DNA from: an uncultured Gammaproteobacteria bacterium
Lineage (GTDB): Bacteria > Patescibacteriota > Microgenomatia > UBA10105 > UBA927
Direction: 5' to 3'
DNA: 64,000 nt
Assembly (NCBI GenBank): GCA_964629685.1
Contig: CAZVTT010000004.1
Span: forward strand, 76-64,075
Shown here: in pieces, positions 33,150-47,446 of the stretch
How positions within the stretch are numbered: position 1 is the first letter of the stretch
Layout of the letters: every line of letters starts with the position of its first letter
Made by a program: the position numbers and the translations under genes
Notes under the pieces: generated by a model
The model's input: the letters and a program-made list of their open reading frames with translations, nothing else
Database searches by the model: none
Told to the model about the DNA's origin: nothing

Positions 33150-33431
33150 ATGGGAACAGAAGAGGCATGGTTTATAGAACTCTCCCTCTATTGCGTCGTT
33201 TTAGTAATACCCATTCTTTCGCTTCTGGCCGTTGTATACGGATTCAGGGAAATCGCGGTGCGTCACAGATTATTTTATAAACTGGTTGGACTGCTCCTGG
33301 TATTGGTGGGCATTTTGGGTGCAATTGTTACGGTAACACACATACTTCCCGCCGCCGCCGAAGGGCTATCCAATATACAATCAAGTATCAGACCAGCACC
33401 GACACCGAACAACCCGTTCAACGGCGACTAA
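33150..33431 (+). CDS. Small membrane protein (93 aa), unknown
   Basis: Two to three hydrophobic helices; RBS AGGAAAGGAATAGGG; flanked by two long hairpins. Confidence 0.45.
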   Translation: MGTEEAWFIELSLYCVVLVIPILSLLAVVYGFREIAVRHRLFYKLVGLLLVLVGILGAIVTVTHILPAAAEGLSNIQSSIRPAPTPNNPFNGD

Positions 33432-33436
33432 CATTT

Positions 33437-33496
33437 GTCAGACAGTGATAGCACTTCGCTTAACACGCGAGTAATGCGCACCTATCACTGTCTGAC
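33437..33496. repeat. 15-bp perfect inverted repeat GTCAGACAGTGATAG-N30-CTATCACTGTCTGAC followed by T-rich tract (terminator-like / regulatory stem-loop)
   Basis: Seen directly. Loop contains GAGTAATGCGCAC, which resembles the arm of the upstream hairpin. Confidence 0.6.
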
Positions 33497-33526: not shown

Positions 33527-33563
33527 TTGTCCACATTTTTTGAAAGTACTACAATCTGTAGTA
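33527..33563 (+). promoter_or_regulatory. blaI promoter (TTGTCC-17-TACAAT) with overlapping operator TACTACA-ATC-TGTAGTA (33547-33563); leaderless start
   Basis: Perfect 7-bp inverted repeat of the TACA/TGTA BlaI/MecI/CopY type; final A is the A of the ATG. Confidence 0.6.
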
Positions 33564-33934
33564 TGAAGATTAAACCATTGAGCGAACTTGAACAATCTGT
33601 TATGGAAATCGTCTGGAGTTTAGGTACGTGCACTGTCCGTGACGTCGTCGATAAGCTCACTGATTCCAAACCATTGGCATATACAACCATTGCTACCATA
33701 ATGAACCGACTAGTGGAAAAAGGAACCCTTCTGAAAAGTAGCGGGAGTATAAGTGCATATACTCCATGTATGTCCAAAGAAATGACAGGAAGAACGGTAG
33801 CCCAGTCATTTCTGAAAAATTTTTTCCGCTCGTACGGAGACTCTGCCGTCGTATCGTTTGCCGAATCAATAGACCAACTCCCGGCAGAAAAAAAGCAGCA
33901 CTTGTTAAACATACTCAAAGCACATGAAAAGTAA
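33563..33934 (+). CDS. BlaI/MecI-family transcriptional repressor
   Basis: wHTH with TVRDVVDKL...YTTIATIMNRLVEKG; no CxC metal motif (not CopY); start MKIKPL. Confidence 0.8.
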   Translation: MKIKPLSELEQSVMEIVWSLGTCTVRDVVDKLTDSKPLAYTTIATIMNRLVEKGTLLKSSGSISAYTPCMSKEMTGRTVAQSFLKNFFRSYGDSAVVSFAESIDQLPAEKKQHLLNILKAHEK

Positions 33935-34934
33935 TGCCGGCAAATATATTATCTGGTTGCTCCTTGCGTGCGGTGGATTTTCCTTCCTGCTGATATCTGC
34001 GTTACATAAATTCCGACCCTTTTTCTTTAAATCTACGGTTTATTACTGCCAGGAAATTCTCAGAACAATGAGTGTTCAGCTGATTCCGAATTATTGGAGT
34101 CAGGCTCTGGTGTTTATTTCGCTACTATTTATCGGCTATATCGTAGTCAGGATGACAGTATTTTTAGCACAGTTTGTGATTCAAATCATATCTCTGCGAA
34201 AAAGAAGTATACCCGTTCCCCCAAAACTGAAACCGATACTGTCGCAACACCATTTAACAGCATATACGCAGGTATACCGGACGTCCAAACCCCTGGCGTT
34301 TTGTTTCGGTACTACAAACGCAAAAATATATATATCTACCGGATTAATATCGCTGCTTACCGGTAAGGAATTAGAAGCGGTACTGTTACATGAAAAATAT
34401 CATCTGGATCACCATGACACGTTTTTTTCCATCCTTACGACTGTACTCGAACATTGTTTTCCTTTTTTTCCGTTGGTGGGGGATATAGCTCACCGATATT
34501 ACATTGCGCGCGAAGTATTAGCGGATGCGTCGGTACTTTCCCAATGTAAACGAGGTAAACAAAGAATCCTTTCCGTCCTAAGAAAACTACTGGAAGTAGA
34601 ACCGAATCACATGTCAACATTATTTCCGGCCGTTGGTTCTGCAGATACGCTGGAGACCAGAATTGCAGTCTTAATGGACACTACTCCTCCGTCCCGGAGA
34701 TTTTCGCTAAATAGCATACTATTAAGCGGTATATCCGCGTTGGTATTACTGGTATTAAATTTATCTCCGGTACAGGCAATCGAAATGTCTGACAAGGGCT
34801 CAGGTTCGGTTATGATGTGCTTCAGTGCCGGGGAATGTACAACGTGGTGCAAAGAAACATCAGCACATCTTCCTGTTCCGGAAGAGAATACATCCAAACC
34901 ACAGTTTTCGGCTGAACTTTTTTCAAAAAACTAA
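33924..34934 (+). CDS. BlaR1-like M56 zinc metalloprotease signal transducer with short Cys-rich C-terminal tail (no penicillin-binding domain)
   Basis: HEKYH HExxH motif in LLHEKYHLDHHD, 4+ TM segments, tail MMCFSAGECTTWC; start overlaps blaI stop by 11 nt. Confidence 0.75.
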   Translation: MKSNAGKYIIWLLLACGGFSFLLISALHKFRPFFFKSTVYYCQEILRTMSVQLIPNYWSQALVFISLLFIGYIVVRMTVFLAQFVIQIISLRKRSIPVPPKLKPILSQHHLTAYTQVYRTSKPLAFCFGTTNAKIYISTGLISLLTGKELEAVLLHEKYHLDHHDTFFSILTTVLEHCFPFFPLVGDIAHRYYIAREVLADASVLSQCKRGKQRILSVLRKLLEVEPNHMSTLFPAVGSADTLETRIAVLMDTTPPSRRFSLNSILLSGISALVLLVLNLSPVQAIEMSDKGSGSVMMCFSAGECTTWCKETSAHLPVPEENTSKPQFSAELFSKN

Positions 34935-34941
34935 CTCGCAC

Positions 34942-34979
34942 TTGACAGAAGCCGGTCGCGATTACTACAGTATGTAGTA
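34942..34979 (+). promoter_or_regulatory. Promoter TTGACA-18-TACAGT with second BlaI-type operator TACTACA-GTA-TGTAGTA (34963-34979)
   Basis: Same half-sites as blaI operator, overlapping -10, 31 nt upstream of the dsbA-like ATG. Confidence 0.6.
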
Positions 34980-35009: not shown

Positions 35010-35756
35010 ATGCCTGAAACACATGGAAAATTTTCATTCGGAAACGGAGTACATCCGCTTCTCGTTTTAGTATTAATCGGCATGTCATTTGCCATCGGTT
35101 CACTTTGGAGCAAGGTACAGTATTTGGAGAAAGGCGGATCGGTCGCAGCAGCGCCTGTTGCCGCTGACCCGAATGCTGCGCCGGCACAACCTCAGGCAGC
35201 ACTAAAAAAACCTGAAGTTACCGCAGCTGATCACTTCCGCGGTAATAAAAACGCCAAGGTAACCTTAGTAGAGTATTCGGATTACGAATGTCCGTTTTGT
35301 AAACAATTTCATCCGACCATGCAGCAAGTCATGAAAGAATACGGCGATCAAGTGAAATGGGTGCTGCGTGATTATCCGCTTTCATTCCATGCCAACGCAC
35401 AAAAAGCTGCTGAAGCGGCAGAATGTGTGGCAAAAAACGGCGGTGAAGATGCATTTTGGAAATTTACCGATCTTTATATAGAAAGAACCACTGCAAATGG
35501 CACTGGATTTCCACTGGATAAACTGGCTGATCTGGGTGCCGAAGCCGGGGCAAACAAGGCGTCCGTACAGAAATGTTTAGATAGCGGAGAAATGACGCAG
35601 AAAGTGAAAGACGAGATGGCGGCCGGAACCAGCGAAGGAGTGCAGGGTACACCCGGAACCATTATCATCGACAGCAAAGGCGGTACGCAATTAATACCGG
35701 GGGCCCTTCCCTTTGAACAAGTGAAACCAATGATCGATGCAGCCTTAAAAGTGTAG
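35010..35756 (+). CDS. DsbA-like thiol:disulfide oxidoreductase, membrane-anchored
   Basis: N-terminal TM, thioredoxin fold with CPFC active site (YECPFCKQF). Confidence 0.75.
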   Translation: MPETHGKFSFGNGVHPLLVLVLIGMSFAIGSLWSKVQYLEKGGSVAAAPVAADPNAAPAQPQAALKKPEVTAADHFRGNKNAKVTLVEYSDYECPFCKQFHPTMQQVMKEYGDQVKWVLRDYPLSFHANAQKAAEAAECVAKNGGEDAFWKFTDLYIERTTANGTGFPLDKLADLGAEAGANKASVQKCLDSGEMTQKVKDEMAAGTSEGVQGTPGTIIIDSKGGTQLIPGALPFEQVKPMIDAALKV

Positions 35757-35758
35757 TC

Positions 35759-36796
35759 ATGAACATTTCCGCAATTTTCCTGACCGGTCTTTTCGCTGGA
35801 GGACTTACATGCCTAGCAGTGCAGGGCGGATTGCTGGCAACGTCTATTGCGCAACAAAAAAACGCAGAACTAACAGAAACCGCAGATAAGACAGGGCACA
35901 TTGTCCCTGTCTTATCTTTTCTGTTTATGCGGCTGGTAGCCTATACATTGCTGGGTATTCTGCTTGGCATGGTAGGTTCATACGTCCAATTATCCGTCAC
36001 GACCAGCATGGTGCTGCAGTTGGCGGTAGCACTATTTATGCTGGGAACAGCATTAAATTTATTGCAGGTTCATCCCATCTTCCGCTATTTTGTCATATCT
36101 CCTCCAAGATTTCTCACAAAACTTGTCCGGAATCAGTCAAAAAGCCAGTCGGTATTTGGCCCGGCGCTTCTGGGATTTTTTACGGTATTTATTCCCTGCG
36201 GAGCTACCCAGGCCATGATGGCGTACGCAATATCGACAGGATCACCATTTTCCGGAGCACTTACGATGTTTACCTTTATACTGGGAACCTCTCCACTATT
36301 TTTTCTTTTAGGTTATGCAGCTAAGCGCCTCGGTCAGACGTTTAGCGGAATATTTAATCAGGTAGCAGCGGCGGCTATAATTCTGGTCGCGCTTTATAAC
36401 TTAAATGGCGCAATTGCTCTTACTGGTACCGCATATACGTTTCAGGGAATACTTTCTGCCGTAACTTGCACCATCAGCTTTTGTGATACAAACACAGTTA
36501 CCTCCCCGCAAACCGCCACCATCGTAAACGAAGCCACAATTATATTTCATAAAAGCGGATATGAACTTGAACCGAAAAATATTGCGGTAAAAGCAGGAAC
36601 AGACGTTAAAATTAAGCTGATAAATGAGGATGGCGACGGCTGCATCCAAGCATTTACCATCCCAAAACTTAACATCCAGCGAATCGTGAGGATAGGCGCC
36701 ACCGATGAAGTAAACATTACCGTTCCCGAAAAAACCGAACAATTGGCGTTTACCTGCAGTATGGGCATGTACCGAGGCTTCATCCCGGTTCTATAG
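35759..36796 (+). CDS. DsbD_2-like polytopic membrane protein fused to C-terminal cupredoxin-like domain
   Basis: 6 TM helices, with Cys in TM1 (GGLTC) and TM4 (FIPCG). C-terminal ~110 aa beta-rich domain ends FTCSMGMYRGFIPVL. Cys occupies the usual His ligand positions of cupredoxin_1. Confidence 0.45.
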   Translation: MNISAIFLTGLFAGGLTCLAVQGGLLATSIAQQKNAELTETADKTGHIVPVLSFLFMRLVAYTLLGILLGMVGSYVQLSVTTSMVLQLAVALFMLGTALNLLQVHPIFRYFVISPPRFLTKLVRNQSKSQSVFGPALLGFFTVFIPCGATQAMMAYAISTGSPFSGALTMFTFILGTSPLFFLLGYAAKRLGQTFSGIFNQVAAAAIILVALYNLNGAIALTGTAYTFQGILSAVTCTISFCDTNTVTSPQTATIVNEATIIFHKSGYELEPKNIAVKAGTDVKIKLINEDGDGCIQAFTIPKLNIQRIVRIGATDEVNITVPEKTEQLAFTCSMGMYRGFIPVL

Positions 36797-37852: not shown

Positions 37853-37921
37853 ATACGAATATCCCTTACGTTTGTCATCCTAACAGGATAAAGCACTGGG
37901 TGCAATGTACCCAAACTTATC

Positions 37922-37930
37922 TGCTATAAT
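37922..37930 (+). promoter_or_regulatory. Extended -10 promoter TGcTATAAT 7 nt before ATG of first acyltransferase paralog (leaderless)
   Basis: TGCTATAAT at 37922-37930, ATG at 37938. Confidence 0.45.
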
Positions 37931-37937
37931 CCGCACT

Positions 37938-38768
37938 ATGAGCTGGAGAACACCGGAAACGGGAATTAAACCCACCCTAAAAAGTCGCGCCGCTGAATTT
38001 ATTTATCATCACCTAAATGATAAATATGAACTGAAAATTTCTGATCGCAGTGCACACAACATGTCGGAAGCAAACAAGATACTTTCCGATAGTGCTCTCG
38101 TTGTTTATATAAATCATATTTTTTCCCGGGATGCCAAAATCATGATTCCATTAGTTTTAACACTACCGAACGTGCGGAGTGTAATGGGACCGGTAGGAAT
38201 GAAGCACTACGATTTTTCCCGGGATCCGGTAAATGCCGTTTTTTTCCGCTCCTTACGAGTATTCGGTATTCATGCAGCTCCTGTTGTACAAAACAGTGAT
38301 GTATACCAATATGGACAGGAACAGAAACAGGGTATGATTATTAATCTGAAACAGTACACTTCCGATTTGTTGAACAGAGCCGGAACACTCTATGGAATAG
38401 CACCTGAAGGCACCAGAAATCCCAGTGGACAGTTACAACGGGCAAATCGGGGAATTGGTTATCTCGAATCGTATGTGCAACCGGACCAGCATCTTCACTA
38501 TTTACCGGTCGGTCTGGTATATCCTGAACATGATACAAATCCGCGGATAATCGTATCAGAACCGTTTACTTTATCGGATATTTTACCTGCGGAGGTTAAC
38601 TTCGCATCCGATCCGAAAGAGCATGCACAACAGATTTCTGATGTATTAATGACTGTGTTAGCCCGTAGTCTTCCTGAACACATGAGAGGTGTATACGGAA
38701 ATCCCGAAACGATATTAGATCCCTTAGGAATCAGGGAAAACCAACTCCACTATCCGTTACACGAATAA
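37938..38768 (+). CDS. PlsC-like lysophospholipid acyltransferase family protein (paralog 1)
   Basis: HX4D (NHIFSRD) and APEGTRNPSG motifs; start moved from 37905 to 37938. Confidence 0.55.
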   Translation: MSWRTPETGIKPTLKSRAAEFIYHHLNDKYELKISDRSAHNMSEANKILSDSALVVYINHIFSRDAKIMIPLVLTLPNVRSVMGPVGMKHYDFSRDPVNAVFFRSLRVFGIHAAPVVQNSDVYQYGQEQKQGMIINLKQYTSDLLNRAGTLYGIAPEGTRNPSGQLQRANRGIGYLESYVQPDQHLHYLPVGLVYPEHDTNPRIIVSEPFTLSDILPAEVNFASDPKEHAQQISDVLMTVLARSLPEHMRGVYGNPETILDPLGIRENQLHYPLHE

Positions 38769-38824: not shown

Positions 38825-39703
38825 ATGACTTGGAATTCACGAGAAAACGAACGCGCCAGACGTACGGTTAAAAGCCGAATAGCGGAGAAAGCCTTCAACG
38901 TCATTAACCGCGCCTATAAATTAGAAATATATCCGGAGCATTCTGCTAACCTTCAGGAAGCTGACCGACGGCTTAGACATAATCCAGTTGTTATTTATAG
39001 CAATCACGTACGAAGCGGAGATTTAAAATTGATGACGCCTATCCTGCTCAGTATGCAAAACGCACAACGGATTGCCGGACCGGCAGGCATGAAACATTGG
39101 GATCTTCACCGCGATGCAATTAACGGTACATTATTGCGTTCACTCAGGTTAGTCGGCATTCGATCAATACCAGTAGTTCAACCGGACGACCCGTATCCCT
39201 ATGAGGATAAGCTTAAAACACACCTTTTACTGAATTTTACCCGCAGAACCGCGTCGTTGTTAAATCAACCGGGTACCCTGTACGGAATAGCGCCTGAAGG
39301 TACCAGAAATCCTGCAGGGATTATTCAACGGGTTTCTCCGGGGATAGGTATGTTCGAATCTTTCATGAAAGCACCCGATATGCAGATAACGTATCAACCT
39401 ATCGGTTTCGTATACCGGGAACAAGATCCCGAAGAACCCAGGATAGTTATCGCACCACCATTTACGCTTTCCGAATTACTCCCCGAATCGAACCTAACGT
39501 TGCTTCACGGATTAAAACGGCAACAGCGGGCACAGATCACCGCAGATCTGCTGATGACAGTACTCGCGGAACAATTACCCGATCATATGCGTGGGGTGTA
39601 TGGGGATCCGGAAGAAATGCTTAAACCTATTGGTATGACTCAGCCTTTGCTTGATGCTGCCATTTTTGAGCTCCCCAGCAGCCAAGAGGTATTCGCTTCG
39701 TAA
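38825..39703 (+). CDS. PlsC-like lysophospholipid acyltransferase family protein (paralog 2)
   Basis: HX4D (NHVRSGD) and APEGTRNPAG; collinear similarity to preceding gene over whole length. Confidence 0.55.
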   Translation: MTWNSRENERARRTVKSRIAEKAFNVINRAYKLEIYPEHSANLQEADRRLRHNPVVIYSNHVRSGDLKLMTPILLSMQNAQRIAGPAGMKHWDLHRDAINGTLLRSLRLVGIRSIPVVQPDDPYPYEDKLKTHLLLNFTRRTASLLNQPGTLYGIAPEGTRNPAGIIQRVSPGIGMFESFMKAPDMQITYQPIGFVYREQDPEEPRIVIAPPFTLSELLPESNLTLLHGLKRQQRAQITADLLMTVLAEQLPDHMRGVYGDPEEMLKPIGMTQPLLDAAIFELPSSQEVFAS

Positions 39704-43410: not shown

Positions 43411-44156
43411 TGCATGTGGTTGTGGGCGGTACCGGGCAAATTTACCAGCGTATTCGCAAACTCGGTAGCTACTTTCTCATTCGCTACCGCATTCGGATGA
43501 GAATCCAACCAGAGTGTTCGGGTATAACTGCGGCGTAGCATACCGTTATTATCAGCCAGAAGCCCAAACAAATCAAAGATAAAAATATTATTACTCCCGT
43601 GGGATAATTTACCTGAAGTTATCCATTTAACTAACTCTCTGGCTCTATACGCGTATTCCTCTTTGGTCAGTTCTTCACGTAGCGGGGGAGGAGTAATTAC
43701 TATAAACATGTGTTTCGAAAACTTTTTTAAAGACGCAGCAATGGTTTGATAGTACTGTTTATAGCGTTCAAATTGCTCCGGCGTCGTTATTTTCGTAGTC
43801 GGATAACAGTTTTTAAAAGCTATGATGTCATAAGAAAGAATTTCTTTAAGCGTTGTATCTTGTTCGTTTCGGGAAAAAATTTCCGCGTACTCTTTTGGAC
43901 TATTGTTACTGAGGACGATGTTATAATCGCGTCCTGTAACTATTCCGTTATTATCTGTTAAACCGGTATGATATGTGTATTTGCTGAAAAAATCAGGATA
44001 ATACCTGTACAAGTTGTAACTGTGATCCCACAACTCCAATTCCGGATTCAATTTAGCCAATTTCTCCCGAAGTTTACCTTCCTTGATAATGTTGGCGCCG
44101 GTAGAATGATGAATAAATAACACTCGGGTTACTTTATGTGCAGCGTGCGGTATCAT
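43407..44156 (-). CDS. Hypothetical protein
   Basis: 249-aa ORF with no motif I can name; overlaps neighbours by 4 nt each side. Confidence 0.4.
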   Translation of the reverse strand: MIPHAAHKVTRVLFIHHSTGANIIKEGKLREKLAKLNPELELWDHSYNLYRYYPDFFSKYTYHTGLTDNNGIVTGRDYNIVLSNNSPKEYAEIFSRNEQDTTLKEILSYDIIAFKNCYPTTKITTPEQFERYKQYYQTIAASLKKFSKHMFIVITPPPLREELTKEEYAYRARELVKWITSGKLSHGSNNIFIFDLFGLLADNNGMLRRSYTRTLWLDSHPNAVANEKVATEFANTLVNLPGTAHNHMH

Positions 44157-44791: not shown

Positions 44792-44831
44792 GGCTTAAGT
44801 ATACCAGTATGGTTATATAAATAAATGCCGG

Positions 44832-44858
44832 TTGACTTATACCCCCTGGGGGTATATT
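44832..44858 (+). promoter_or_regulatory. Promoter (-35 TTGACT) with CsoR-type operator TATACCCCC-T-GGGGGTATA (44838-44856)
   Basis: Perfect 9-bp GC-rich inverted repeat resembling B. subtilis copZA CsoR box (TACCC...GGGTA) overlapping -10 region. Confidence 0.65.
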
Positions 44859-44866
44859 CTCGATGT

Positions 44867-45139
44867 ATGAAATCACATTATGATGACGTAAAAGAAAAAG
44901 CCCAAAAAAGAATAAACATCATTAAGGGACAACTGGACGGCTTGCAGAAAATGATAGAAAAGGATGAATACTGCATTGATCTTCTTAATCAAAGTTTGGC
45001 AATACAAAACTCACTCAAGAGTTTGGATTCGGTACTCTTTGAACGGCACGTAACAACCCATGTTGTGCATCAGGTTAACAATGAAAAGGGAAAAGCAGTG
45101 GATGAATTAATAACCCTTTTTAACAGAATCAATAAATAA
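44867..45139 (+). CDS. csoR: CsoR/RcnR-family metal-sensing repressor
   Basis: DUF156 fold, Cys (EYCIDL) and His (ERHVTTH) ligand positions; start at MKSHYDD (ORF-track start 44825 lies in promoter). Confidence 0.7.
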   Translation: MKSHYDDVKEKAQKRINIIKGQLDGLQKMIEKDEYCIDLLNQSLAIQNSLKSLDSVLFERHVTTHVVHQVNNEKGKAVDELITLFNRINK

Positions 45140-45154
45140 CCCTATTACACAGAT

Positions 45155-47446
45155 ATGGAAACACAAAAGTTTAACGTAAATGGCATGCACTGTGCCAGTT
45201 GTAGTGCGATAATTTCCAGGAAACTGAAAAAACTCCCCGGAATTGATTCCTGTGACGTAAACTATGCCACGGAAAAAGCAACCGTCACGTATGACCCGAA
45301 AAAAGTAACTCTCTCAGACATGAATGCCGAAATAACAAAGTACGGTTATGCGTTGTTAGAATCCATCACTAGAAATCAAAAGAATACTCCACATGTAAAT
45401 GATCTGAATAACACCCGGATTACCGGATCACATGAAACAAAAACCGAAAAATTAGCAGCATTACACGCCTTACGATTTAAAGTACTAGTGGGGCTACCAT
45501 TCGCCGTTATAGTTTTCGTATTAATGCTGTGGGAAATGGCGACAAATACCTTTATGAGCTTGGTGCATATACCGTTATCCATGCACTTGCTAAATTCCGT
45601 TTTGTTCGTATTTTCTGCCATAACCTTATTCTGGATCGGACAGCCCTTTATTGATGCGGTAATCCGGTTTATAAAATATCGGGTTGCAAATATGGATACG
45701 CTGGTGGGTATCGGGACGCTCACCGCCTTTGTCTACAGTACGTTAATACTGTTGTTTCCGCCGATACGCATCCTACTGAATGCGCCGGACCATACCTATT
45801 TTGATGTAACCATCGTGGTTATCGGCTTTGTTACACTGGGGAAATATCTGGAAGCCAAATCCAAAATACAAACTGGCGAAGCTATCGAAAAACTCCTAAA
45901 TCTTCAAGCCAAAACGGCACTGGTAGAGAGGAACGGAATCGAAACGGAAATTCCCGTTTCGGATGTGGTGGTAGGAGATATAGTCATTGTTAAACCGGGT
46001 GCAAAAATCCCCGTAGACGGAGTAATTCTTTCCGGAACTACCGCTATAGATGAGGCCATGGTTACCGGTGAATCGATACCGGTAGACAAAAAAAAGGGTG
46101 ACACCGTCATCGGGGCAACCATGAATAAACAAGGCAGTATCAGGTTTACCGCTACCAAAGTCGGCTCGGATACCATGCTGGCTCAGATCGTAAAACTGGT
46201 AGAAAACGCTCAGGGTTCAAAAGCGGAAATTCAAAATTTAGCCGACAGAATATCTGCAGTATTCGTACCACTGGTGCTGCTGGCTGCCGCCGTCACATTC
46301 TTGCTCTGGTTAACAATCGGTTCTTCAGCGCTCGGTTTTTCCAATGCGCTTTCATTCGGATTACTATCATTTGTCGGCATTTTAGTTATTGCTTGTCCTT
46401 GCGCACTGGGACTTGCTACCCCGACCGCTATTATTGTCGGAGTAGGAAAAGGTGCTGAGAATGGCATTCTCATAAAAAACGCCAATAGTTTGGAAAAACT
46501 GCACTCTGTAGACACGCTGATATTTGATAAAACCGGAACTATTACCGGAGGTAAGCCGCGGGTGACGGATTTAATCAGTCTAAACAGTAAAACGAATAAA
46601 ACGGAAGTACTCTCATTTGCACTTGCACTGGAGCACCACTCTCAGCATCCGTTAGCCACGGCAATCGTAGACAGCGCGAGAGAAATGAACATTAGTCCAA
46701 CACCGGTGACGGAATTTAAGGAAACTGAAGGAGTCGGAGTTGAAGGAAAGACACAGAATAAAAGTATAGCCGTCCGAAAACCTTCCGGAAAGGAAAAGAG
46801 TATCCCACAAATCAGGAAACTCGAATCCGAAGGGAAAACGGTAGTTACGGTGTTTGCCGATCAGAAATTAATAGGCGCAGTGGCGATCAGCGATACCATA
46901 AAACCAAATGCATTATCGGCCATAAAAACTATAAAAAAAATGGGAATTAAAACTATTATGATGACCGGAGATAACTCCCGCGCGGCCCGGTATATTGCCG
47001 ACCAAATCGGAATAGATCAGGTTTTCGCAAACGTACTCCCTTCGGATAAGGCAGGTGTTATTAAGAACTTACAGTCAAACGGCAACAAAGTGGCTATGGC
47101 AGGTGACGGTATAAATGATGCGCCGGCACTCACTCAGGCCGACGTAGGCATTGCTATGGCCACCGGAACGGATATAGCGATAGAGTCATCCGATATCACG
47201 CTGCTTCACGGAGACATTTTAAAAATACCGCAGGCGATAAAATTGTCACGGGCCACCATGCGAACAATAAAACAAAATCTTTTCTGGGCCTTTATTTACA
47301 ATATTATTGGCATTCCCTTAGCAGCCGGTGTGTTTTATCCTATTTGGGGAATTTTACTAAATCCGATATTTGCGGGAATGGCCATGGCGTTATCTTCGGT
47401 GTCAGTAGTCAGTAATTCGTTATTACTGAAAAAAACCAAAATCTAG
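45155..47446 (+). CDS. copA: Copper-translocating P1B-type ATPase
   Basis: N-terminal HMA GMHCASC, CPC transmembrane motif, DKTGTIT, GDGINDAP. Confidence 0.9.
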   Translation: METQKFNVNGMHCASCSAIISRKLKKLPGIDSCDVNYATEKATVTYDPKKVTLSDMNAEITKYGYALLESITRNQKNTPHVNDLNNTRITGSHETKTEKLAALHALRFKVLVGLPFAVIVFVLMLWEMATNTFMSLVHIPLSMHLLNSVLFVFSAITLFWIGQPFIDAVIRFIKYRVANMDTLVGIGTLTAFVYSTLILLFPPIRILLNAPDHTYFDVTIVVIGFVTLGKYLEAKSKIQTGEAIEKLLNLQAKTALVERNGIETEIPVSDVVVGDIVIVKPGAKIPVDGVILSGTTAIDEAMVTGESIPVDKKKGDTVIGATMNKQGSIRFTATKVGSDTMLAQIVKLVENAQGSKAEIQNLADRISAVFVPLVLLAAAVTFLLWLTIGSSALGFSNALSFGLLSFVGILVIACPCALGLATPTAIIVGVGKGAENGILIKNANSLEKLHSVDTLIFDKTGTITGGKPRVTDLISLNSKTNKTEVLSFALALEHHSQHPLATAIVDSAREMNISPTPVTEFKETEGVGVEGKTQNKSIAVRKPSGKEKSIPQIRKLESEGKTVVTVFADQKLIGAVAISDTIKPNALSAIKTIKKMGIKTIMMTGDNSRAARYIADQIGIDQVFANVLPSDKAGVIKNLQSNGNKVAMAGDGINDAPALTQADVGIAMATGTDIAIESSDITLLHGDILKIPQAIKLSRATMRTIKQNLFWAFIYNIIGIPLAAGVFYPIWGILLNPIFAGMAMALSSVSVVSNSLLLKKTKI

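What the first reader, a model, noticed from the sequence alone, without database searches (positions are those of the whole stretch)
35759..36796. Fusion of a DsbD_2-like thiol-transfer membrane domain with a cupredoxin-like domain lacking canonical His ligands
The N-terminal 6-TM region carries single Cys residues in TM1 and TM4, typical of DsbD_2/CcdA-like electron shuttles. The C-terminal ~110 aa resembles the cupredoxin_1 topology, ending FTCSMGMYRG. Positions normally occupied by the two His ligands are Cys and Met (DGDGC..., CSMGM). This predicts a Cys/Cys/Met-type Cu(I) or redox-disulfide site, not a blue-copper centre. Paired with the DsbA-like gene, it suggests a copper- or thiol-coupled envelope redox module.
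Basis: inference. Interest (0 to 1): 0.55.

Follow-up and report, generated by a model that had tools for sequence, protein, structure and literature searches.

The report
Membrane protein with outward CupA-type copper site
This gene encodes a six-helix, two-cysteine membrane protein fused to an outward-facing copper(I)-binding domain like the pneumococcal chaperone CupA; it belongs to a large, uncharacterised family found in copper-export operons and mislabelled "sulfite exporter".

Summary
ORF 35759-36796 (345 aa) has a DsbD_2 six-helix core (E 2.4e-31) and a C-terminal Cupredoxin_1 domain (E 3.8e-9).

The closest solved structures to the C-terminal domain are S. pneumoniae CupA and the CopA metal-binding domain. 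CupA's Cu(I) ligands, one Cys plus C-x-M-x-M, align with C295 and C333/M335/M337.

C18, C147 and C295 are invariant in 200 homologues, and C333/M335/M337 are present in 199. A linker C-x4-C is present in 81%. Charge bias and N-terminally extended variants place the copper domain outside the cell.

In 80 related genomes, 73 have a CopA-type ATPase within 6 kb and 48 have CsoR. The window's arrangement, blaI-like / M56 protease / dsbA-like / this gene, recurs in about 20 genomes with a conserved CTACAnnnTGTAG operator before blaI and dsbA.

This is a copper-stress envelope protein, not a blue-copper protein or a sulfite exporter.

Unresolved: whether the membrane cysteine pair carries electrons to keep the external site reduced (my choice, about 0.45) or carries Cu(I) itself (about 0.3).

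I found no paper describing this fusion. I rate it a new variant of a known kind, interest about 0.6.

The parts
35759..36796 (+). Target ORF, 345 aa: DsbD_2 six-helix core, Cys-containing linker and CupA-type cupredoxin domain
35759..36424 (+). Six-helix DsbD_2 core (aa 1-222), predicted N-out/C-out. Invariant C18 (35810-35812) in TM1 and C147 (36197-36199, motif IPCG) in TM4. Q22, Q151 and M94 are invariant in 200/200; H105, M153 and M154 are nearly so.
   Evidence: Pfam; helices; conservation and K+R bias (12.6 versus 0.7)
36467..36484 (+). Linker motif C237-T-I-S-F-C242, just outside TM6
   Evidence: Present in 162/200 homologues; low-confidence region of the model
36497..36793 (+). CupA-type cupredoxin domain (aa 247-345). 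Ligand candidates are C295 (36641-36643) and C333-S-M335-G-M337 (36755-36769).
   Evidence: Pfam; Foldseek 4f2e/4f2f; profile versus PDB; conservation
35010..35756 (+). Membrane-anchored DsbA-like thioredoxin-fold protein (CPFC motif). Its stop codon lies 2 nt before the target's start codon.
   Evidence: Pfam Thioredoxin_4/DSBA; syntenic in 25/80 loci; CPFC and N-terminal anchor conserved
34963..34979 (.). Operator-like dyad TACTACAGTATGTAGTA between the M56 gene and dsbA, overlapping a promoter-like site (34942-34971)
   Evidence: same dyad at the same place in related loci
33924..34934 (+). BlaR1-like M56/M48 membrane protease (HEKYH) with a short external tail ...VMMC-x5-C-x3-C
   Evidence: Pfam; tail conserved in 18/20 homologues
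33563..33934 (+). BlaI/MecI/CopY-family repressor without the CopY C-terminal Cys motif. The likely start is ATG 33563 (the listed ORF starts at TTG 33527).
   Evidence: Pfam Penicillinase_R and NCBIfam CopY_TcrY/BlaI; sequence
33547..33563 (.). Operator-like dyad TACTACAATCTGTAGTA directly before the blaI-like ATG, overlapping a -10-like TACAAT
44825..45139 (+). CsoR/RcnR-family metal-sensing repressor with a C-H-H fingerprint, 8 kb downstream of the target
   Evidence: Pfam Trns_repr_metal; fingerprint
45155..47446 (+). P1B-1-type (Cu+/Ag+) ATPase: HMA domain (GMHCASC), CPC, YN and MxxSS motifs

Best explanation
The protein is a copper-stress component of the cell envelope.

Shown or strongly inferred (about 0.85): six helices place both termini outside the cell, so the C-terminal domain is extracytoplasmic. 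That domain is a CupA-type cupredoxin carrying the full binuclear Cu(I) ligand set: C295 and C333 for the bis-thiolate site, and C295, M335 and M337 for the Met-rich site. The gene belongs to copper-responsive operons.

Committed mechanism (inferred, about 0.45): the membrane core works like CcdA, DsbD or ScsB. Cytoplasmic thioredoxin reduces the C18/C147 pair in the middle of the membrane. The pair passes the electrons outward, probably through the linker C237-x4-C242. This keeps the C295/C333 thiols, and in this genome perhaps the co-transcribed DsbA-like CPFC protein, reduced. The outer domain can then capture Cu(I) released by CopA, or Cu(II) after reducing it, and so limit copper-catalysed damage to envelope thiols.

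Inferred regulation in this genome: the BlaI-like repressor binds CTACAnnnTGTAG before blaI and before dsbA. It is removed by the M56 protease when the protease's Cys/Met/His-rich external tail senses copper or thiol stress.
For: Domain identity:
- Pfam DsbD_2 and Cupredoxin_1 both score above their cut-offs.
- DsbD_TM scores 24.8 bits here and is listed for almost all of the best 120 homologues.

CupA match:
- Foldseek gives 4f2e at E 5.7e-5, TM-score 0.76 and rmsd 1.9 A over 88 columns, and 4f2f at E 6e-5.
- The family profile matches the CupA sequence at E 5.4e-6, with the Cys and C-x-M-x-M aligned.
- CupA ligand roles and its cysteine-dependent Cu(II) reduction, with an electron source described as unknown, are in PMC5646241.

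Conservation:
- C18, C147 and C295 are present in 200/200; C333, M335 and M337 in 199/200; the linker C-x4-C in 162/200.

Topology:
- Mean K+R count is 12.6 in loops 1, 3 and 5, against 0.7 in the N-terminus and loops 2 and 4.
- Relatives with an extra N-terminal helix preceded by an Arg/Lys-rich or HMA segment fit the same orientation.

Copper context:
- CopA lies within 6 kb in 73/80 loci and CsoR in 48/80. A CopA or small HMA gene is directly adjacent in 59/80.
- 41 of 50 CsoR-family proteins compared (48 loci, plus the window's own and a reference copy) carry the Cu(I) fingerprint C-H-C.
- The same neighbours occur on metal-resistance plasmids of Mycolicibacterium, Deinococcus and Streptomyces.

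Redox context:
- The DsbA-like gene is translationally coupled here and syntenic in 25/80 loci.
- TlpA, CcdA and peroxiredoxin genes lie nearby on the Mycolicibacterium and Streptomyces plasmids.

Regulation:
- The dyad is conserved before blaI and dsbA, sits directly before this gene in L033 (which has no dsbA), and occurs before csoR in L012 and L013.
- A copper-activated BlaI/BlaR-type pair, PetR/PetP, is known (bioRxiv 10.1101/2020.07.31.226407).

Precedent from my own knowledge: characterised two-Cys DsbD-superfamily proteins move electrons, and E. coli DsbD and Salmonella ScsB/ScsC-CueP link this to copper tolerance. TCDB lists copper resistance among DsbD roles (PMC4608589).
Against: - No electron transfer or metal binding was measured. 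Every mechanistic step is inferred.
- 55 of 80 loci have no detectable thioredoxin-fold gene near this gene, whereas known CcdA/DsbD cores hand electrons to a thioredoxin-fold acceptor.
- TM1 lacks the proline that flanks the cysteine in CcdA.
- The window protein scores just below the DsbD_TM cut-off (24.8 versus 27.1 bits).
- Neither the family profile nor the TM-only model matched CcdA significantly in the PDB. hhalign to an annotated CcdA was weak (E 0.12), although it aligned IPCG with the TM4 Cys.
- At least four cluster representatives carry a cytoplasmic HMA metal-binding domain in front of the core, and a CopZ-like gene often follows directly. Conserved Met and His residues lie in the core. 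All three features fit a metal pathway better than an electron pathway.
- Why a cell under copper stress would benefit from binding or reducing copper at its outer surface is not established.
Confidence: 0.45

Rival explanations
1. Thiolate-relay Cu(I) carrier. A cytoplasmic HMA protein or domain (CopZ-like) hands Cu(I) to the C18/C147 pair. The pair alternates access across the membrane and passes the metal by ligand exchange to the linker C-x4-C, and then to the external CupA-type site. This would be an ATP-independent route in parallel with CopA, comparable to MerP-MerT-NmerA for Hg(II) but running outward.
For: - HMA / extra helix / DsbD_2 / cupredoxin fusions exist (P0165, P0194, P0213, P0246).
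- A small HMA gene lies directly downstream in 33/80 loci and on the Mycolicibacterium, Deinococcus and Streptomyces plasmids.
- M94, H105, M153, M154, Q22 and Q151 are invariant or nearly so, and lie on both sides of the Cys pair.
- Most loci have no thioredoxin-fold partner.
- The DsbD family belongs to the LysE superfamily, most of whose families are metal or amino-acid carriers (PMC4608589).
- HMA+DsbD_2 proteins (COG2836) were predicted to belong to the CsoR regulon in gut Firmicutes (PMC4938975).
- From memory, not checked here: InterPro names PF13386 'UreH-like', and UreH is a secondary Ni transporter family (PMC2667541).
Against: - No characterised two-Cys DsbD-superfamily protein transports metal.
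- A second exporter beside CopA in the same operon needs a rationale and an energy source.
- HMA fusions are a minority.
- H105, M154 and Q22 are not kept in the more distant members.
Confidence: 0.3
2. Copper acquisition rather than detoxification. The external domain captures, or reduces and captures, copper, and the core passes it inward to supply cuproproteins.
For: - The CupA-type site binds Cu(I) tightly and can reduce Cu(II) in vitro.
- The relay geometry would work in either direction.
- The window's cassette has no adjacent CopA or CopZ.
Against: - The family is overwhelmingly embedded in operons with CsoR and Cu(I)-exporting ATPases, which are switched on by excess copper.
- Patescibacteria encode few known copper enzymes (my own knowledge, not tested here).
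Confidence: 0.07
3. The six-helix domain is only an anchor or oligomerisation module for an external copper-binding domain, and its cysteines are structural.
For: Stand-alone CupA-like proteins in the same operons use a single-helix anchor. This shows the domain can function without the core.
Against: - C18, C147, Q22 and Q151 are invariant in 200/200 homologues at mid-membrane positions.
- A single helix would suffice as an anchor.
- The core matches a family defined by these two cysteines.
Confidence: 0.08
4. The substrate is another thiophilic metal (Hg, Ag, Cd or Ni/Co) rather than copper.
For: - The Deinococcus plasmid copy lies near merB and MerR.
- The window's CsoR-family repressor has an RcnR-like C-H-H fingerprint.
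Against: - 41 of the 50 CsoR-family proteins compared have the Cu(I) fingerprint C-H-C.
- The window's ATPase has the P1B-1 Cu+/Ag+ motifs CPC, YN and MxxSS.
- The ligand set is that of a Cu(I) protein.
Confidence: 0.07
5. It is a blue-copper electron-transfer protein, or a sulfite exporter as databases annotate it.
For: - Cupredoxin fold.
- NCBI and JGI name it 'sulfite exporter TauE/SafE family protein'.
Against: - The two His ligands of type-1 copper are absent.
- No TauE/SafE Pfam model matched at E<=0.1.
- The genomic context is copper export.
Confidence: 0.02

Closest known systems
CupA, membrane-anchored Cu(I) chaperone of Streptococcus pneumoniae (PDB 4f2e, 2mry), and the cupredoxin-like metal-binding domain of its CopA (4f2f)
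   Same: - Same fold: the two best structural matches.
- Same ligand pattern: one upstream Cys plus C-x-M-x-M.
- Encoded in copper-export operons under a copper-linked repressor.
   Different: - CupA has one N-terminal helix and works in the cytoplasm. Here the domain follows a six-helix core and is predicted to lie outside the cell.
- The CopA ATPases here carry HMA domains, not cupredoxin domains.
- Sequence identity is only 20-24%.
- Reviews describe CupA as confined to a few streptococci (PMC7558416). This ligand set is widespread in Patescibacteria, Actinomycetota, Deinococcota and Chloroflexota.
CcdA / DsbD membrane thiol:disulfide electron transporters (TC 5.A.1; Pfam DsbD_TM, DsbD_2)
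   Same: - Six-helix core with one Cys in TM1 and one in TM4 (the latter in a Pro-Cys motif).
- N-out/C-out orientation.
- Pfam DsbD_2 member.
   Different: - Its relation to the CcdA model proper is marginal (24.8 bits against a cut-off of 27.1).
- TM1 has no proline.
- It is fused to a non-thioredoxin copper domain.
- The core contains conserved Met and His residues.
ScsB/ScsC with CueP (Salmonella), and copper-induced DsbD systems such as the P. aeruginosa dsbDEG operon
   Same: The logic is the same: copper stress induces a DsbD-type membrane reductase together with a DsbA-like or thioredoxin-fold partner, and this keeps a Cys-based periplasmic copper protein reduced. Basis: my own knowledge for Scs/CueP; the abstract of bioRxiv 10.1101/2020.08.17.255257 for dsbDEG.
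   Different: - ScsB and DsbD are larger multidomain proteins with their own periplasmic domains.
- CueP is not a cupredoxin.
- Here the reductase-like core and the copper site are one polypeptide.
MerP-MerT mercury relay
   Same: It offers a precedent for paired cysteines in a membrane helix exchanging a thiophilic metal with soluble HMA-type domains on either side (my own knowledge).
   Different: - The proteins are not homologous.
- MerT imports Hg(II).
- No transport has been shown for the DsbD_2 family.
COG2836 HMA+DsbD_2 proteins of the predicted CsoR regulon in gut Firmicutes (PMC4938975)
   Same: - DsbD_2 core linked to copper regulation and to HMA domains.
- Uncharacterised.
   Different: Those proteins carry HMA and/or DUF2318 domains, not a CupA-type cupredoxin domain.
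PetR/PetP of Synechocystis, a copper-activated BlaI-type repressor and M48/M56 protease
   Same: - The repressor and protease genes overlap.
- The protease lacks a beta-lactam sensor domain.
- The pair is linked to copper.
   Different: - PetRP controls the plastocyanin/cytochrome c6 switch.
- The M56 protein here has a conserved Cys/Met/His-rich external tail that PetP lacks.
- The regulated genes are dsbA, this gene and, in other genomes, copZ-copA or csoR.

Membership tests
Pfam DsbD_2 (PF13386) | HMM score above the gathering cut-off over the whole domain | tested here: met
   109.6 bits against a cut-off of 24.9; aa 5-212 match profile positions 1-198 of 199
CcdA/DsbD electron transporters (PF02683, TC 5.A.1) | DsbD_TM HMM score above the gathering cut-off | tested here: inconclusive
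   24.8 bits against a cut-off of 27.1 for the window protein. Relatives P0190 (42.6 bits) and P0156 (30.3 bits) pass. PF02683 is precomputed for almost all of the best 120 homologues.
CcdA/DsbD electron transporters | One conserved Cys in TM1 and one in TM4 of a 3+3 helix repeat | tested here: met
   C18 and C147 are present in 200/200 homologues; helices
CcdA/DsbD electron transporters | Pro-flanked Cys motifs in both helices | tested here: not met
   TM4 has IPCG, but TM1 is LTCLAVQGG with no proline. The motif definition is from my own knowledge.
CcdA/DsbD electron transporters | N-terminus and C-terminus outside the cytoplasm | tested here: met
   K+R count of 12.6 versus 0.7; variants with an extra N-terminal helix agree. 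This is a prediction only.
CcdA/DsbD electron transporters | Fold similarity to a solved CcdA structure | tested here: inconclusive
CcdA/DsbD electron transporters | Extracytoplasmic thioredoxin-fold acceptor | tested here: inconclusive
   A DsbA-like CPFC gene is adjacent here and in 25/80 loci. None was detected in the other 55.
CcdA/DsbD electron transporters | Thioredoxin-dependent transfer of electrons across the membrane | not testable with these tools
   Needs biochemistry or genetics
CupA-type cupredoxin Cu(I) domain | Cupredoxin fold closest to CupA / CopA metal-binding domain | tested here: met
   4f2e: E 5.7e-5, TM-score 0.76, rmsd 1.9 A. 4f2f: E 6.0e-5
CupA-type cupredoxin Cu(I) domain | Ligand set of one Cys plus C-x-M-x-M at the aligned positions | tested here: met
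   Alignments; conserved in 199-200 of 200 homologues; ligand roles from PMC5646241
CupA-type cupredoxin Cu(I) domain | Single N-terminal anchor with the domain in the cytoplasm, and a cognate CopA with a cupredoxin metal-binding domain | tested here: not met
   The domain is C-terminal to a six-helix core and predicted outside. The CopA proteins here have HMA domains.
CupA-type cupredoxin Cu(I) domain | Binds two Cu(I) ions with high affinity | not testable with these tools
Type-1 (blue) copper cupredoxins | His, Cys, His, Met ligand set | tested here: not met
   Both His positions are absent in the alignment with 4hcf
Sulfite exporter TauE/SafE (the database annotation) | Match to the TauE/SafE family model | tested here: not met
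   No such Pfam or NCBIfam match at E<=0.1
BlaI/BlaR1-type (PetR/PetP-like) proteolytic switch, for the two upstream genes | Penicillinase_R repressor, an overlapping M56 HExxH membrane protease gene, and a dyad operator at the regulated promoters | tested here: met
   Pfam; 11-nt gene overlap; CTACAnnnTGTAG conserved before blaI and dsbA
BlaI/BlaR1-type (PetR/PetP-like) proteolytic switch | Signal-dependent cleavage of the repressor | not testable with these tools
   Needs experiment

The most novel reading that the evidence does not exclude
The family is a previously unrecognised kind of copper transporter. A CcdA-like two-cysteine core would carry Cu(I), not electrons, across the membrane by thiolate ligand exchange. 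Copper would pass from a cytoplasmic HMA chaperone or domain to an external CupA-type site, without ATP. In this genome it would be controlled by a BlaR1-like protease that senses copper outside the cell through a Cys/Met/His tail.
Probability: 0.3. Interest if true: 0.8.

Novelty: new variant of a known kind. Interest (0 to 1): 0.6.

Why it matters
- **CupA distribution.** CupA-type copper sites are described in reviews as a peculiarity of a few streptococci. Here the same ligand set is widespread, faces outward, and is wired to a DsbD-type membrane core.
- **Open questions it addresses.** How do bacteria without an outer membrane handle copper after CopA has expelled it? What supplies electrons to Cys-based CupA-type sites? 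A published model leaves that electron source unknown.
- **Database annotation.** Thousands of entries labelled "sulfite exporter TauE/SafE" would need re-annotation as copper-homeostasis proteins.
- **Testability.** The same gene sits on metal-resistance plasmids of cultivable Streptomyces, Mycolicibacterium and Deinococcus, so the two mechanisms can be tested directly.
- **Regulation.** The BlaI/M56 pair with a conserved operator suggests that protease-based copper signalling, known from cyanobacterial PetRP, also controls copper defence genes.

Tried and rejected
**Searches that found nothing**
- The canonical cop box or BlaI box TACAnnTGTA has 0 matches in the window. The 3-nt-spacer variant is the conserved one.
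- Full-text searches for DsbD_2 with cupredoxin, for PF13386, and for CupA with DsbD/CcdA found no paper on this fusion.
The lineage (Patescibacteria, Microgenomates/WWE3-like) is inferred from the nearest homologues.

**Structure comparisons that were unavailable or uninformative**
- The TM-only model gave no significant PDB match, so fold-level comparison with CcdA is undecided.
- hhalign against one annotated Streptomyces CcdA was weak (E 0.12), although it aligned IPCG with the TM4 Cys.
- Model coordinates are not exposed, so ligand geometry and the C18-C147 distance could not be measured.

**Readings rejected**
- The blue-copper and TauE/SafE readings were rejected for lack of the His ligands and lack of any HMM match.
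- DsbA as the family's universal partner was rejected: it is found in only 25 of 80 loci.
- A third dyad match at 44008-44018 lies inside a gene, 800 nt from csoR. I treat it as chance.
- The strong hairpin inside the ORF is not conserved in homologues and is not part of the finding.
Full report
**1. The observation**

The ORF at 35759-36796 (+) encodes 345 aa. Pfam assigns aa 5-212 to DsbD_2 (E 2.4e-31) and aa 247-342 to Cupredoxin_1 (E 3.8e-9). Both scores are above the curated cut-offs. The CcdA-type model DsbD_TM scores 24.8 bits, just under its cut-off of 27.1. NCBIfam has no specific family for the protein.

AlphaFold models show six long helices, with TM4 broken at P146-C147, then a low-confidence linker and a beta-sandwich. 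The full-length model has pLDDT 68 and the TM-only model 75.6. C18 lies in TM1 and C147 in TM4. The protein ends FTCSMGMYRGFIPVL, and DGDGC carries C295.

**2. The C-terminal domain is a CupA-type Cu(I) domain**

By sequence, the best PDB match is S. pneumoniae CupA. The single sequence gives E 0.064 and the family profile gives E 5.4e-6. The cupredoxin-like metal-binding domain of pneumococcal CopA also matches (E 0.006). In both alignments the upstream Cys and the C-x-M-x-M motif are aligned with C295 and C333-S-M335-G-M337.

By structure, the two best PDB matches of the model are the same two proteins. 4f2e gives E 5.7e-5, TM-score 0.76 and rmsd 1.9 A over 88 columns; 4f2f gives E 6.0e-5.

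[quoted passage not shown] The cysteines also reduce Cu(II) in vitro, with an electron source that the authors call unknown (PMC5646241).

Against a classical Cupredoxin_1 structure (4hcf), both His ligand positions are missing. The domain is therefore not a blue-copper centre.

**3. Conservation**

The protein search found more than 5,900 relatives among the 8,000 candidates scored. The 120 best all have both domains and come from Patescibacteria, with names such as Woesebacteria and Roizmanbacteria. Where annotated, they are called "sulfite exporter TauE/SafE".

Across 200 homologues (120 proteins plus 80 genome loci), conservation is as follows:

| Position | Present in |
|---|---|
| C18, C147, C295 | 200/200 |
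| C333, M335, G336, M337 | 199/200 |
| Q22, Q151, M94 | 200/200 |
| H105 | 199/200 |
| M154 | 194/200 |
| M153 | 190/200 |
| Linker pair C237-x4-C242 | 162/200 |

An exhaustive search with the C-terminal domain alone found 426 cluster representatives at E<=0.001. Of the 149 hits examined from the best-150 list, 137 contain C-x-M-x-M. These include stand-alone anchored proteins, DsbD_2 fusions with one or two cupredoxin domains, and HMA / extra helix / DsbD_2 / cupredoxin proteins.

**4. Topology**

Loops 1, 3 and 5 carry on average 12.6 Lys+Arg residues. The N-terminus and loops 2 and 4 carry 0.7. This predicts that both termini lie outside the cell, the orientation known for CcdA and DsbD (my own knowledge).

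Relatives with an N-terminal extension add one helix preceded by an Arg/Lys-rich segment (P0190, P0195) or by an HMA domain (P0165). That arrangement fits only if the first helix of the core starts outside.

The CupA-type domain and the linker cysteines are therefore predicted to be extracytoplasmic, unlike CupA itself.

**5. Genomic context**

Counts in 80 loci from different species:

| Neighbour within 6 kb | Loci |
|---|---|
| CopA-type ATPase | 73 |
| CsoR-family repressor | 48 |
| DsbA-like protein | 25 |
| M56 protease | 21 |
| BlaI-like repressor | 18 |
| Stand-alone anchored CupA-like protein | 18 |

In 59 loci a CopA or a small HMA (CopZ-like) gene is directly adjacent. In 33 loci the small HMA gene follows this gene directly.

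Typical orders are csoR / (cupA-like) / copA / this gene / copZ, and csoR / this gene / copZ / copA. Of the 50 CsoR-family proteins compared (48 loci, plus the window's own and a reference copy), 41 carry the Cu(I) fingerprint C-H-C.

The same architecture and neighbours occur on metal-resistance plasmids of cultured bacteria.
- In Mycolicibacterium aubagnense, TlpA, a P-type ATPase, this gene and an HMA protein lie together.
- In Deinococcus sp. QL22, this gene is followed by an HMA protein.
- In Streptomyces mirabilis P16B-1, the cluster holds CopC, a peroxiredoxin, CcdA, M56, BlaI/CopY, CcdA, this gene, a small cation-binding protein and a P-type ATPase.

**6. The window's own arrangement**

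The four genes are blaI-like (33563-33934), M56 (33924-34934, overlapping blaI by 11 nt), dsbA-like (35010-35756) and the target, which starts 2 nt after the dsbA stop. They are followed by a convergent NUDIX gene. About 20 genomes share this cassette. In several of them it continues with copZ, copA and a second DsbA-like gene.

The window has no adjacent copA. It does have a CsoR-family gene (44825-45139) and a P1B-1-type ATPase with HMA, CPC, YN and MxxSS motifs (45155-47446), 8 kb downstream.

The dyad CTACAnnnTGTAG lies directly before the blaI ATG (33547-33563). A second copy lies between M56 and dsbA (34963-34979), overlapping a promoter-like site. The same dyad occupies the same two positions in the related cassettes. 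In L033, which has no dsbA, it lies 25 nt before this gene. In L012 and L013 it also precedes csoR. This argues that the BlaI-like repressor controls this gene.

The repressor lacks CopY's C-terminal cysteine motif. The M56 protease has a short external tail with a conserved H...(V/I)M.C-x4-6-C-x3-C pattern in 18 of 20 homologues. A copper-activated BlaI/BlaR-type pair, PetR/PetP, is known in Synechocystis. A copper- or thiol-stress-triggered proteolytic switch is therefore plausible but untested.

**7. Mechanism**

The following points are shown or strongly inferred:
- The protein has a two-Cys DsbD_2 core.
- It has an external CupA-type domain with the full Cu(I) ligand set.
- It belongs to copper-responsive operons.

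I put about 0.85 on [quoted passage not shown].

What the core does is not shown. I commit to the electron-relay reading at about 0.45. In this reading, thioredoxin reduces C18/C147, which reduces C237/C242, which reduces C295/C333. This keeps a Cys-based copper site functional outside the cell. In this genome it may also serve the co-transcribed DsbA-like protein.
- This is what characterised two-Cys DsbD-superfamily proteins do.
- Copper stress is a classical reason to induce them (DsbD, ScsB/ScsC with CueP; my own knowledge).
- It would supply the missing electron source proposed for CupA-type sites.

The main rival, at about 0.3, is that the Cys pair carries Cu(I) itself from a cytoplasmic HMA chaperone to the external site.
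- It is favoured by the HMA fusions, the adjacent CopZ-like genes, the conserved Met and His residues in the core, and the lack of a thioredoxin-fold partner in most loci.
- The DsbD family also belongs to a superfamily made up mostly of metal and amino-acid carriers.

Import, a passive anchor, other metals, blue-copper electron transfer and sulfite export are less likely. Reasons are given under the rival explanations.

**8. Comparison with known systems, and novelty**

The domain works like CupA but fails two features of CupA proper: a single N-terminal anchor with a cytoplasmic location, and a CopA partner that carries a cupredoxin domain. The core is a DsbD_2 member with the hallmark cysteines but only a marginal relation to CcdA. 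Its fold-level comparison with CcdA is undecided.

I found no paper on this fusion. The nearest published item is a computational note that HMA+DsbD_2 proteins fall in the CsoR regulon of gut Firmicutes. Reviews state that CupA is confined to a few streptococci, which these data contradict at the level of the domain and its ligand set.

I classify the finding as a new variant of a known kind, with interest about 0.6. It is a large, misannotated family with a clear copper link, two sharply testable mechanisms, and cultivable carriers.

Noticed in passing
window 33924-34934 (M56 protease), C-terminal tail aa ~290-336: The BlaR1-like protease has no beta-lactam sensor domain. It has a short external tail, ...VMMCFSAGECTTWC..., whose His/Met/three-Cys pattern is conserved in 18 of 20 homologues. 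It is a candidate extracellular copper or redox sensor for a proteolytic switch; a copper-activated PetR/PetP pair is a known precedent.
   Followed up: partly
window 33547-33563 and 34963-34979; same positions in L002-L017, L034; L033:5976; L012:7287; L013:4315: A conserved dyad (TA)CTACAnnnTGTAG(TA) resembles the cop/BlaI box but has a 3-nt spacer. It lies before blaI and dsbA, before this gene where dsbA is absent, and before csoR in two genomes. It defines a small predicted regulon.
   Followed up: yes
window 33527 versus 33563: The blaI-like ORF is listed from TTG 33527. The Pfam domain begins at residue 18, and the operator ends at the in-frame ATG 33563, which is the more likely start.
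   Followed up: partly
window 35875-35926, inside the target ORF: A very stable hairpin (13-bp perfect stem, about -28 kcal/mol in 65 nt, followed by a T-rich run) encodes loop 1 of the protein. It is absent at the same place in nine homologous loci (-4 to -17.5 kcal/mol). No function is proposed.
   Followed up: partly
window 33438-33496: A perfect 15-bp inverted repeat (GTCAGACAGTGATAG ... CTATCACTGTCTGAC) followed by a T-run lies just after the small membrane ORF 33150-33431. It is probably a terminator separating that gene from the cassette.
   Followed up: no
window 44825-45139: The CsoR-family repressor next to the Cu+/Ag+-type ATPase has a C-H-H fingerprint (RcnR-like, with a His near the probable N-terminus) instead of the Cu(I) fingerprint C-H-C. 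Eight related loci share this variant.
   Followed up: partly
L052:2055-2864 and 8 other loci: A second DsbD-like membrane protein with vicinal Cys pairs in two helices (FAPCCITF and SSCCAPVL) sits in cop operons of 9 loci, in L052 next to a DUF1573 protein. L052 also has a VKOR gene directly after the target homologue.
   Followed up: no
L068:3369-3743, L052:2906-3322 and 16 other loci: Stand-alone CupA-like proteins with one N-terminal helix and the Cys plus C-G-M-G-M ligands lie between csoR and an HMA-type copA. They are CupA-like chaperones outside streptococci, paired with a non-cupredoxin CopA.
   Followed up: partly
L081 (Mycolicibacterium aubagnense plasmid), L082 (Deinococcus sp. QL22 plasmid), L083 (Streptomyces mirabilis P16B-1 plasmid): Cultured bacteria carry the same DsbD_2-cupredoxin gene on metal-resistance plasmids, next to HMA proteins and P-type ATPases. 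In Streptomyces it also lies next to BlaI/M56, two CcdA genes and CopC. These are usable experimental hosts.
   Followed up: partly
window 37905-38768 and 38825-39703: Two adjacent, similar-sized ORFs (287 and 292 aa) look like tandem paralogues. The second matches the Acyltransferase family weakly and the first matches nothing.
   Followed up: no
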